Source of the DNA: Torpedo marmorata
Lineage: Eukaryota
Length of the DNA: 64,000 bases
Direction: 5' to 3'
Assembly (NCBI GenBank): GCA_977017645.1
Contig: OZ360243.1
Location: 48,856,001-48,920,000 of the forward strand
Positions within the stretch are counted from its first letter, which is position 1. Each line of letters starts with the position of its first letter. Positions 8,813 to 11,126 of the stretch are shown piece by piece. The position numbers and the translations under genes were made by a program. The notes below the pieces were generated by a model, which saw nothing but the letters and a program-made list of their open reading frames with translations, searched no databases and was not told the DNA's origin.

Positions 8813-9733
8813 GTGTTAACAATGCTCTTTCCCTGTTCTTTCCCTTTCCCCAATTGTCTCTTATTCTATTTTACCTTTGCTCACTGTGATCCTAATTCCT
8901 TCACTCTTTCTGTCCTTTCCCTTCACTATAACTCTCCTTTTCATTATTTTTTTTCCAATCACTATGCTTTCTTCCATTCCTCTTGCCTGTTTGGCTGATA
9001 TTACTTTTACTGTTTCCCTTTGCTCTTCAAATTTCATTCATAAATATCCACAAATATCTCCTTTCCTGATCTCTCTCCATCTTTCAATTTCCATTGTTCT
9101 TTTCTTCTGTCTTTCTTTGCTTATATGCTCCCATCTGCTTCAATATTTTAATATCATGATTATTTCTTCATCTCTGCTTTTATTTGGTTTCTCCCTATCC
9201 CTGTATTTTTCCTCTGACATTCCTGTACTTTTTGTCTCTATTTACGTGTCTGCTTTCCTTTCATATATGTGTATGTACTTGTGTGTATCTGTTTATGTGC
9301 ACCTTTGTGCATGTGCATCTGGTGCTCAATGTGTGTTTGCGTGCATATGTACTTCTGTCTGTGTTCTTTAATGTATGCATTATAATGCTTATATCTGTTT
9401 GTGTGTGTGTGTGTATACATGTTTGCATGTGCATCTATCTTTGATGTGACGTGTCACTGTGTTTCTGGTTGCCTCTCTCTACATCTCCATCTGTTTCATT
9501 GTTTGTCTATTCATATTTGTGTGCTTCTGCTTGCCCATCGATATCTTTGTGTTCGCTCTTGTTCTGTACGCATGTTTGTGGATGTGCTGCTCTGCATCTT
9601 GGTATGCCTGTCTGACTCTCACTCTACCTGTGTCCGCCTCTGGTTCTGCCTGTCTCTTCATCGCTGTTTTGCTCTATTTCTGTTTCTGGTTCTGTCTGTC
9701 TTTGTCCTTGTTCTGCCTGTCTCTCTGTCTCAG
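8813..9733 (+). promoter_or_regulatory. Extended AG-exclusion zone and pyrimidine/UG-rich 3' splice-site region of the ccdc136 TM exon
   Basis: No AG between 8812-8813 and the acceptor AG at 9732-9733; TTAAC branch-like motif at 8816-8820 followed by a polypyrimidine tract; TGCATG at 9308 and 9424. Confidence 0.7.
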
Positions 9734-9838
9734 AATGCCACTTTTCCTGACCCCCCTGTGCTCTCCTTGCCTGTGATAGGACTGGTTGTACTGATGGCCA
9801 TGCTGTGGTGCTGGTGGGCTGAGACCTCCCGGCATTGA
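9734..9838 (+). CDS. ccdc136: CCDC136-like C-terminal tail-anchor exon ([34 protein letters not shown])
   Basis: Acceptor TCTCTGTCTCAG|; peptide closely resembles the recalled human CCDC136 C-terminus [27 protein letters not shown]; stop at 9836-9838, donor AG|GTACTG after 9842; lies upstream of flnc as in human. Confidence 0.85.
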
Positions 9839-11126
9839 CCAGGTACTGAAGTTTTATTATCTTTGTAAACGTATTAGCAAATTTGGTCTTGGGTGACATT
9901 AAGACAGTCATGGGGATAAAGAGTGATTAGAGCAGGTTAAAGTTTGGGGCTGAGTAGGATACCATGTGGAGTTGAACAAGTTACAAACTGGGGTTGAAAA
10001 GGGAAAAGCACACTGTCTGCACCCTTTTCAGAGGAATGTAACTGTAAATCCATTAAAGTAACTAAGGAACAGGATTCCTGTGCTCTTCTTCCTTCTCTAA
10101 TCCAGGATGCACTGGACAGTGGTGATCAGGAACAAGAACACTTGGTGATTTCCCTTTACTCTACAACAGGACTCTGGACAGTAATAAGGAACAGGAATGT
10201 TGGCTGATTGCTCCTCTCTCTAACTTAGTGGTCCCAGGCCAGAGATTTACAGCAGGAACGCTGTCTGTTTTCACCTCTAACCCTGGATTGTAGTGACCCC
10301 ATTGCCCTGCTTGGGTTCAACAACCTCAGGAGAGATGAGACAAATTAAACTGGGATTGTTGTGCTGTAAAAGTTTACTTTTGTCCAGATCCCTTCTTCAC
10401 TCACTCATCCGTTTTCAATGCCATTGTGTAGTGACCATGCTGTGTGTGTCATGTTGTGACAGCTGTTTGAGATTAAAGCATATCACCAGTTGATTTATAA
10501 TTTTGTGAAAACCTATTGGAACACTGCTAATGTTCATTCTCTGCACAAAGAATGGCAGGGAGAACACAGTGACGTTCCACACAAAGCAGATTCATTGCTT
10601 TAATTCACCGGGTGCAAGTTCCTGATCTCCCCTGAGGTGGAGGAATTAGAAAGAAGCAGGAATTCTGCAGAGATCTTCGCTGGGTAACTGAGTAGGTAGT
10701 AGAAGAGGGAGGGAGGAGGACAGGATGGGGTGGAGGAAGTATCCCACGCAAACAGGGAGGGGGCAAAGTAGTGATGGGGGCAGGAGGAAGCTTTAAGAAC
10801 TGCATTGTCCCTTCCCAAAATATTCATGGTCGATCTTGGGAGGTTTATTGGTAGGGTAAGATTGGTGGTGTGAGGTAAGTTTGGCTGGTGTTTAAATATA
10901 GTATTACACTGGAGAAGAAACAAAATTCATCAGGAATGTAATTGAAAAAAAAATCACCAATTATTTTCACAGGGTGGGGGCTCTGGAAAATAATCTGCAC
11001 TGTGTTAACAGTGTGTGGGGCAGAGTGCTGTTGATGGAGAGAAGGGAGGGGGAACAGGCAGCACAGAGACTGTTAGAGTTACAGCTGGAATTTATCTGTG
11101 ACCTTTTGCTGCTTTCTTTCCTGTAG

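What the first reader, a model, noticed from the sequence alone, without database searches (positions are those of the whole stretch)
8813..9842. ~920-nt AG-exclusion zone in front of the ccdc136 tail-anchor exon: candidate ultra-distant branch point
Seen: reading base by base I find no AG dinucleotide from 8814 to the acceptor at 9732-9733. The region is non-repetitive, contains plenty of A and G, and has the reverse dinucleotide GA about ten times. It opens with a branch-point-like GTTAAC (8815-8820) followed by a dense polypyrimidine tract, then turns UG/UGC-rich with TGCATG at 9308 and 9424. Known: long AG-exclusion zones mark distant branch points where the first downstream AG is selected, and are typical of regulated alternative exons; the examples I recall are a few hundred nt. 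TGCATG is the RBFOX site, and UG, YGCY and CU tracts bind CELF, MBNL and PTBP. Inference: the branch point may lie ~900 nt upstream, with the spacer acting as a regulatory platform for inclusion of the TM exon.
Basis: partly seen in the sequence, partly recalled or inferred. Interest (0 to 1): 0.8.

Follow-up and report, generated by a model that had tools for sequence, protein, structure and literature searches.

The report
918-base AG-free zone before CCDC136 anchor
The last 918 bases of an intron in the vertebrate gene CCDC136 contain no AG at all, which likely means that splicing branches about 915 bases upstream and scans from there to a likely optional membrane-anchor exon, an extreme but untested case of a known splicing layout.

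Summary
Observation confirmed: no AG in 8814-9731 (17.5 expected; P about 2e-5 even with the purine/pyrimidine pattern fixed). It is the only non-tandem AG gap above about 200 nt in 464 kb and ends at the acceptor of the CCDC136 tail-anchor exon TA1 (9734-9842). Orthologous proteins end in TA1 or a downstream TA2 tail, so TA1 is a conserved cassette. The best U2-pairing adenosine is 8819 (-915), at the 5' edge and followed by a pyrimidine tract; no A lies between -57 and -3. That edge is about twice as conserved as other intron pieces in four related organisms, and its distance to the acceptor is kept (about 939 and 955 nt) while the middle drifts. The same scoring finds edge branch points in this genome's three PTBP exons (zones 305-392 nt). 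The long zone is lineage-limited: 58 nt in a teleost copy, 27 nt in the paralogue SLMAP. RBFOX/MBNL/PTB motifs are not enriched. No lariat or junction read was seen. Precedents: human DLG4 (873 nt) and PTPRS (1126 nt); this scan also noted 0.7-1.5 kb zones in other genomes. Verdict: new, extreme member of the distant-branch-point exon class.

The parts
2386..2520 (+). Penultimate coding exon of CCDC136 (coiled coil, phase 0 at both ends), donor CAG|GTAAGT; its own AG-free zone is 20 nt
   Evidence: 87% identical to P0001, whose relatives are named CCDC136; splice sites
8637..8921 (+). Conserved intronic block spanning the 5' edge of the zone
   Evidence: 4-8% differences in organisms C, D, E, F against 7.5-15% in other intron pieces; single copy; no Rfam family near threshold
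8796..8816 (+). Predicted small hairpin that holds the last upstream AG (8812-8813) and touches the branch motif; weak, speculative
   Evidence: present in MFE and centroid folds but z = -1.4 (19 of 200 shuffles as stable)
8814..8820 (+). Candidate distant branch site TGTTAAC, branch A 8819 at -915
   Evidence: only A in 8700-9731 with all six U2 pairs possible (two wobble), 90% pyrimidine downstream; not mapped
8825..8851 (+). Polypyrimidine tract directly behind the candidate branch A (27 nt, one purine)
   Evidence: sequence
8814..9731 (+). AG-exclusion zone, 918 nt: 76-78% pyrimidine to about 9213, then UG-rich, then pyrimidine-rich again
9308..9429 (+). Two TGCATG (RBFOX-type) motifs at 9308 and 9424; not enriched
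9612..9622 (+). Nearest alternative branch candidates, CTGAC (A 9615, -119) and CTCAC (A 9621, -113); weaker U2 pairing
   Evidence: 4 of 6 pairs for 9615
9677..9731 (+). Adenosine-free stretch covering the usual branch window
   Evidence: A positions in the last 130 nt: -130, -119, -113, -108, -74, -58, -2
9734..9842 (+). TA1 tail-anchor exon (34 codons, stop 9836-9838, donor CAG|GTACTG); acceptor AG 9732-9733
   Evidence: translation; matched by C-termini of 65 of 120 relatives by tblastn; 38-70% identical to ten orthologous tails
11127..11210 (+). TA2-like last exon, AG-free zone 40 nt; second half of the hydrophobic helix is missing in frame
   Evidence: best of 1495 acceptor-preceded peptides against TA2-type tails (score 50 against 32), BLASTP 9/16 to P0021; not found by a TA2 profile

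Best explanation
The 918 AG-free bases sit between a predicted distant branch point at A8819 (-915) and the acceptor of the CCDC136 TA1 tail-anchor exon, and likely stay AG-free because the spliceosome would take the first AG downstream of that branch point. U2AF and U2 snRNP would assemble on the TGTTAAC plus pyrimidine tract at the 5' edge, the first step would form the lariat there, and the second step would scan to the AG at 9732-9733; weaker branch sites inside the zone may be used as well. The distance likely weakens and delays the acceptor, making TA1 a skippable cassette: inclusion gives the strongly hydrophobic anchor (ER-type by analogy with SLMAP TA1), skipping joins the TA2-like exon, whose helix looks degenerate in this assembly. 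Shown: zone, exon, candidate ranking, conservation pattern, alternative tails in orthologous proteins. Inferred: branch use, scanning, regulation, targeting.
For: AG absence beyond composition. Zone ends exactly at a coding acceptor and normal AG density resumes at once upstream (4-6 per 100 nt), the hallmark stated in PMC1431707. Top-scoring A lies 6 nt inside the 5' edge with a pyrimidine tract, and no A lies in -57..-3; mapped branch points of long zones lie mostly towards the 5' end (PMC2991248 passages). Positive control: this genome's three PTBP 34-nt exons have zones of 327, 305 and 392 nt and the same scoring puts their best A at -300, -269, -356, like human PTB 381 nt and nPTB 438 nt/-389. 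Edge block more conserved than other intron pieces: F 18/285 against 175/1133 (p 3e-5), E 30/379 against 147/1042 (p 0.001), C 22/520 against 206/2731 (p 0.006), D 15/253 against 35/307 (p 0.03). One contig each in E and F spans edge to acceptor at about 939 and 955 nt although the middle does not align at 80%. None of the 16 listed changes to A or G inside the zone in organisms A and D, none of the listed indels, and none of four loose ends of D (103 nt) makes an AG. Of 120 related proteins 67 carry a TA1-type and 29 a TA2-type end by pattern match, 1 both, 25 neither.
Against: No lariat or splice-junction read was seen in this or any related organism. The no-new-AG result is weak alone (P 0.06-0.10), three difference rows and differences near contig ends were not listed, and AG status in organisms C, E, F could not be read. 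The conserved block also extends 180-400 nt upstream of the zone, so it may serve another element. Long zones often use several branch points, and MBNL1 exon 8 used -51/-64 rather than its edge candidate; deleting distal branch points had only modest effects in three minigenes (PMC5378181). Human PTPRS has 1126 nt but mouse 229 nt; here a teleost copy has 58 nt and SLMAP 27 nt, so great length is not needed for this cassette. Regulator motifs are not enriched. The U2-pairing score is a simple one of my own.
Confidence: 0.6

Rival explanations
1. The productive branch point is nearer (for example -119/-113, or -490 to -850); the far edge site only forms slow or dead-end lariats, or the long pyrimidine-rich tract is a protein-binding silencer. 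AG is purged along the whole tract because any AG behind such tracts would become a cryptic acceptor.
For: Candidates with 4-5 U2 pairs lie throughout the zone; multiple branch points are common in long zones; distal branch points were proposed as a holding state with modest effect.
Against: The nearer candidates pair less well; the region around -280 to -125 is about 13% diverged in organism D while the edge is about 6%; the zone's 5' end coincides with the best candidate to within 6 nt, as in the PTBP controls within 27-36 nt.
Confidence: 0.3
2. The zone is decayed simple-repeat DNA ((TG)n, (CT)n, (TA)n) that lacks AG by descent, next to an ordinary acceptor; the conserved edge block is an unrelated element.
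For: Purine-purine steps are scarce and short imperfect repeats occur; PMC1431707 describes a repeat-derived 369-nt zone with no splicing role; longer AG gaps in this window are repeats.
Against: AG is absent even against a purine/pyrimidine-fixed null (P 2e-5) while AA, GA, GG occur 18, 10, 8 times; tandem cover 5%; no A in the normal branch window; spacing kept in E and F.
Confidence: 0.06
3. RNA structure loops the spacer out and brings the edge branch site close to the acceptor without scanning.
For: The whole zone folds slightly better than shuffles (z -2.5, 0 of 20); structure bridging is a known route (discussion).
Against: No helix joins the edge to the acceptor in the predicted folds; only two short inverted repeats, neither at the ends; looping out would remove the need to exclude AG.
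Confidence: 0.04

Closest known systems
Distant-branch-point exons with AG-exclusion zones (Gooding et al. 2006, PMC1431707; seen: section 6, passages, part 1 of 12 of supplement 2), e.g. PTBP1 exon 11 (381 nt), nPTB (438 nt, predicted -389)
   Same: AG-free run ending at the acceptor, branch candidate and pyrimidine tract at the 5' edge, normal AG density upstream, cassette exon
   Different: 918 nt is 2.3-3 times this genome's own PTBP zones (305-392 nt) and more than twice the roughly 400 nt quoted as the range of mapped distant branch points; here the exon switches a membrane anchor rather than a reading frame
Human DLG4 (post-synaptic density 95) entry, zone 873 nt with predicted branch point -864, and PTPRS, zone 1126 nt (PMC1431707)
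   Same: Same length class; in DLG4 the same edge placement of the predicted branch point; in PTPRS the same variation in length between lineages (mouse 229 nt)
   Different: Other genes; those branch points are predictions in that paper; the CCDC136 zone is more U- and UG-rich than the C-rich DLG4 tract
SLMAP alternative tail anchors TA1/TA2 (Byers et al. 2009, PMC2712456; seen: passages)
   Same: Paralogous gene with the same last-three-exon layout: alternative TA1 exon, then TA2; found here on contig C22
   Different: SLMAP TA1 in this genome has a 27-nt zone; targeting (TA1 ER, TA2 ER plus mitochondria) was shown for SLMAP, not for CCDC136; the CCDC136 TA2-like exon here looks degenerate

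Membership tests
AGEZ / distant-branch-point exon | Extended AG-free region (100 nt or more) directly upstream of a true acceptor | tested here: met
   918 nt ending at the TA1 acceptor
AGEZ / distant-branch-point exon | AG at normal frequency upstream of the zone; not explained by a repeat or composition | tested here: met
   4-6 AG per 100 nt upstream, nulls P 2e-5 or lower, 5% tandem cover
AGEZ / distant-branch-point exon | Best branch candidate plus pyrimidine tract near the 5' end, none in the usual window | tested here: met
   A8819 ranks first; no A in -57..-3; control on PTBP exons
AGEZ / distant-branch-point exon | Branch point mapped at the distant site | not testable with these tools
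   only assembled contigs were available; no lariat reads
AGEZ / distant-branch-point exon | First AG downstream of the branch point is selected (inserted AG captures splicing) | not testable with these tools
   needs a minigene
AGEZ / distant-branch-point exon | Exon is alternatively spliced | tested here: inconclusive
   met for orthologues at protein level; no junction seen for this organism or its close relatives
AGEZ / distant-branch-point exon | Zone conserved in orthologues | tested here: inconclusive
   no AG among listed changes in A and D, edge and spacing kept in C, E, F; only 58 nt in a teleost copy
AGEZ / distant-branch-point exon | Regulatory elements between branch point and exon | tested here: inconclusive
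   motifs present but not enriched; binding untested
CCDC136/SLMAP TA1 tail-anchor exon | Short phase-0 exon encoding a C-terminal hydrophobic helix with stop, between the last coiled-coil exon and a TA2 exon | tested here: met

The most novel reading that the evidence does not exclude
A8819 is the main productive branch point, so the spliceosome scans about 915 nt between its two steps, more than twice the mapped range quoted in the papers read; the spacer grew in one vertebrate lineage, keeps its length and AG-free state while its sequence drifts, and (possibly gated by the small hairpin at the branch site) decides whether CCDC136 gets a membrane anchor at all, because the alternative TA2 tail has decayed.
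Probability: 0.35. Interest if true: 0.65.

Novelty: new member of a known kind. Interest (0 to 1): 0.42.

Why it matters
How far a branch point can lie from its acceptor, and whether the second step really scans, is still open (discussion of PMC5378181). This intron is a clean natural test: one strong edge candidate, no proximal adenosine, a short well-defined exon, and built-in controls (a teleost copy with 58 nt, the paralogue with 27 nt, PTBP exons with 305-392 nt in the same genome). It would also tie branch-point distance to a switch of membrane anchor. The layout itself is known and zones of this length are already listed for human genes, which limits surprise.

Tried and rejected
No relatives of this genome are held for whole-genome search. 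No RNA holder listed by the run search; two runs guessed to be RNA were laid, but repeats in the 9-kb stretch filled the joint table (15 rows shown, 360 not shown), so no splice junction could be read; X7 had contigs of depth 116 on the penultimate exon and 91 at 11200 against 4-8 for intron pieces, which the tool says cannot rank parts of a gene, so I draw nothing from it. Hidden micro-exon in the conserved block: 13 GT sites in 8640-8830, none resembling a good donor. Known RNA family: 4 Rfam matches, all far below threshold. Transposon origin of the edge block: single copy. Hairpin at the edge: z -1.4, no covariation data. RBFOX, MBNL, CU motif enrichment: none in the zone; TGTG 25 against 17.9 (P 0.03) is one of 36 tests; the GCATG at 9570 is changed in organism D. 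General inflation of zones in this large genome: rejected by the PTBP control; my first PTBP fetch took the wrong intron. A profile of 29 TA2-type tails found SLMAP TA2 weakly (E 0.015) and not the 11127 exon. Pfam scan gave only coiled-coil noise. CCDC136, NAG6, SLMAP do not occur in the two Gooding supplements as held (many entries carry no gene name and the large file may be cut). Paper searches for CCDC136 splicing or isoforms and for longer mapped branch distances (listings and abstract starts only unless cited) showed no report of this zone; subscription papers are mostly not held, Hallegger 2010 was not held, and bioRxiv supplements and lariat-sequencing tables were not seen and may hold longer mapped distances.

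Full report
Observation. Between the AG at 8812-8813 and the AG at 9732-9733 there is no AG: 918 nt with 122 A and 132 G, 17.5 expected, minimum 4 in 20000 shuffles. Purine-purine steps are generally scarce there (36 against about 70), so I used stricter nulls: block shuffles (minimum 3-4 in 20000 each) and permutation of A/G on the fixed purine/pyrimidine pattern (mean 9.0, zero in 2 of 100000). Three longer AG gaps in the window are tandem repeats; otherwise no non-tandem gap exceeds 177 nt in 264 kb around the gene or 182 nt in 200 kb around SLMAP.

Gene context. The zone ends at the acceptor of a 109-nt exon (9734-9842) that encodes a hydrophobic C-terminus and stop. The upstream exon 2386-2520 matches P0001 at 87%, whose best 120 listed relatives (of 357) are mostly named CCDC136. 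Their C-termini fall into two types directly after the same coiled coil: 67 of 120 TA1-type, 29 TA2-type, 1 both, 25 neither, by pattern match. So TA1 is a cassette conserved across bony fishes and amphibians. A TA2-like exon starts at 11127 (best of 1495 acceptor-preceded peptides; BLASTP 9/16), but its helix breaks off in frame after about 17 residues and a TA2 profile does not find it; whether this is decay or an assembly error is open. The labels TA1/TA2 come from the paralogue SLMAP, where TA1 targets the ER and TA2 also mitochondria (PMC2712456, passages).

Branch candidates. Scoring every A in 8700-9731 for pairing with the U2 motif (motif recalled; scoring my own) ranks A8819 first: the only one with all six pairs possible, followed by 90% pyrimidines, 6 nt inside the 5' edge, -915 from the exon. 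The next are -839, -851, -490. The last 130 nt hold A only at -130, -119, -113, -108, -74, -58 and the acceptor, whereas 80% of constitutive human branch points lie at -49 to -20 (PMC5959240, passages). As a control I located three PTBP genes in G000: their 34-nt exons have zones of 327, 305 and 392 nt and the same scoring puts the best A at -300, -269 and -356, in line with human PTB 381 nt and nPTB 438 nt/-389 (PMC1431707 section 6). The method thus recovers the known layout, and zones are not generally inflated in this genome.

Conservation in close relatives. 24 runs of 10 coded organisms share words with the region; I laid 8 runs, all contigs. In organisms A and D, 16 listed changes to A or G inside the zone, the listed indels and four loose ends of D (103 nt) create no AG (read by eye); this is weak alone (P 0.06-0.10), and 3 rows plus differences near contig ends were not listed. 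Runs X2 and X3 gave only short repeat-like pieces, X24 little cover. The piece covering the 5' edge differs less than other intron pieces shown: F 18/285 against 175/1133, E 30/379 against 147/1042, C 22/520 against 206/2731, D 15/253 against 35/307 (Fisher p 3e-5, 0.001, 0.006, 0.03). I left out pieces that include exons; the piece tables were cut by the tool; the edge pieces include 160-400 nt upstream of the zone. In D, 8 listed differences fall in 8693-8731 and 1 in 8732-8902, with 6 unlisted (p 0.0006, or 0.09 if all six lie in the latter). In E and F one contig spans edge to exon at about 939 and 955 nt while roughly 8922-9450 does not align at 80%: length kept, sequence drifting. AG content of those middles could not be read.

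Distant comparisons go against deep conservation. A teleost-type ccdc136 TA1 exon on L042 (1 locus from 248 candidate stretches; 86% to P0005) has a 58-nt zone. SLMAP TA1 in G000 has 27 nt. The other two CCDC136 acceptors in the window have 20 and 40 nt. The kilobase zone is therefore particular to this gene in this lineage.

Regulatory platform. TGCATG (2 against 1.03), GCATG (3 against 1.17), YGCY (25 against 26) and CU motifs are not enriched over dinucleotide shuffles. A small hairpin at 8796-8816 would hide the last upstream AG and overlap the branch motif by three bases, but it is not significant (z -1.4). No fold joins the edge to the acceptor.

Mechanism. Most likely (0.6) a distant branch point at the edge with scanning to the first AG, perhaps alongside weaker internal sites, making TA1 skippable. 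The stop lies 4 nt before the exon's donor, so inclusion would be expected to escape nonsense-mediated decay if the 11127 exon is last (general knowledge, recalled). Main rival (0.3): nearer productive branch points with the edge as a slow holding site; long zones often use several branch points (PMC2991248, passages) and distal deletions had modest effects (PMC5378181, passages). No lariat or junction was observed.

Known kind and novelty. The layout is that of Gooding et al. 2006: 838 of 67,334 human exons have zones of 100 nt or more, 165 of 150 or more; PTPRS has 1126 nt (mouse 229), and the first of 12 parts of supplement 2 lists DLG4 with 873 nt and a predicted branch point at -864. Mapped distant branch points are quoted as up to about 400 nt. 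Seven paper searches showed no report on this zone. Earlier notes of this scan describe 916-nt, 1.5-kb and 718-nt zones in other genomes, unchecked here; none matches this locus. Verdict: real, selected, a new and extreme member of a known class; worth a lariat experiment, not a new kind of system.

Noticed in passing
window 11127-11210: The TA2-like exon matches orthologous tails for about 17 residues, then loses hydrophobicity in frame; a neighbouring frame continues with a few hydrophobic residues. Degenerate anchor or assembly error.
   Followed up: partly
window 11317-14185: About 2.8 kb C-rich tandem array (period about 18, almost no A) directly behind the TA2-like exon, possibly within the 3' UTR; its opposite strand is G-rich.
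   Followed up: no
window 8797-8812 and 9136-9151: A 16-nt direct repeat (94%); the second copy could pair with the 3' arm of the edge hairpin. May be chance.
   Followed up: no
L048/L043, L045, L047 (G000 C54:14080972, C2:198458717, C22:226666747): All three PTBP genes keep the 34-nt exon with zones of 327, 305, 392 nt and TACTGAC near the edge; the C2 copy also has a proximal TGCTGAC at -25.
   Followed up: partly
window about 19270-19960 and 24690-25380: Matching sequence at both places (same dinucleotide gaps and same 16-nt tandem unit) suggests a local duplication about 5.4 kb apart.
   Followed up: no
window 51144-51695, minus strand: Open frame with coiled-coil-like repeats resembling one near SLMAP on C22; looks like a retrotransposon gag-type frame; not examined.
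   Followed up: no
L042 1101-1277: The teleost-type TA1 exon keeps the same ending (stop shortly before CAG|GTA donor) with a short 58-nt zone.
   Followed up: partly
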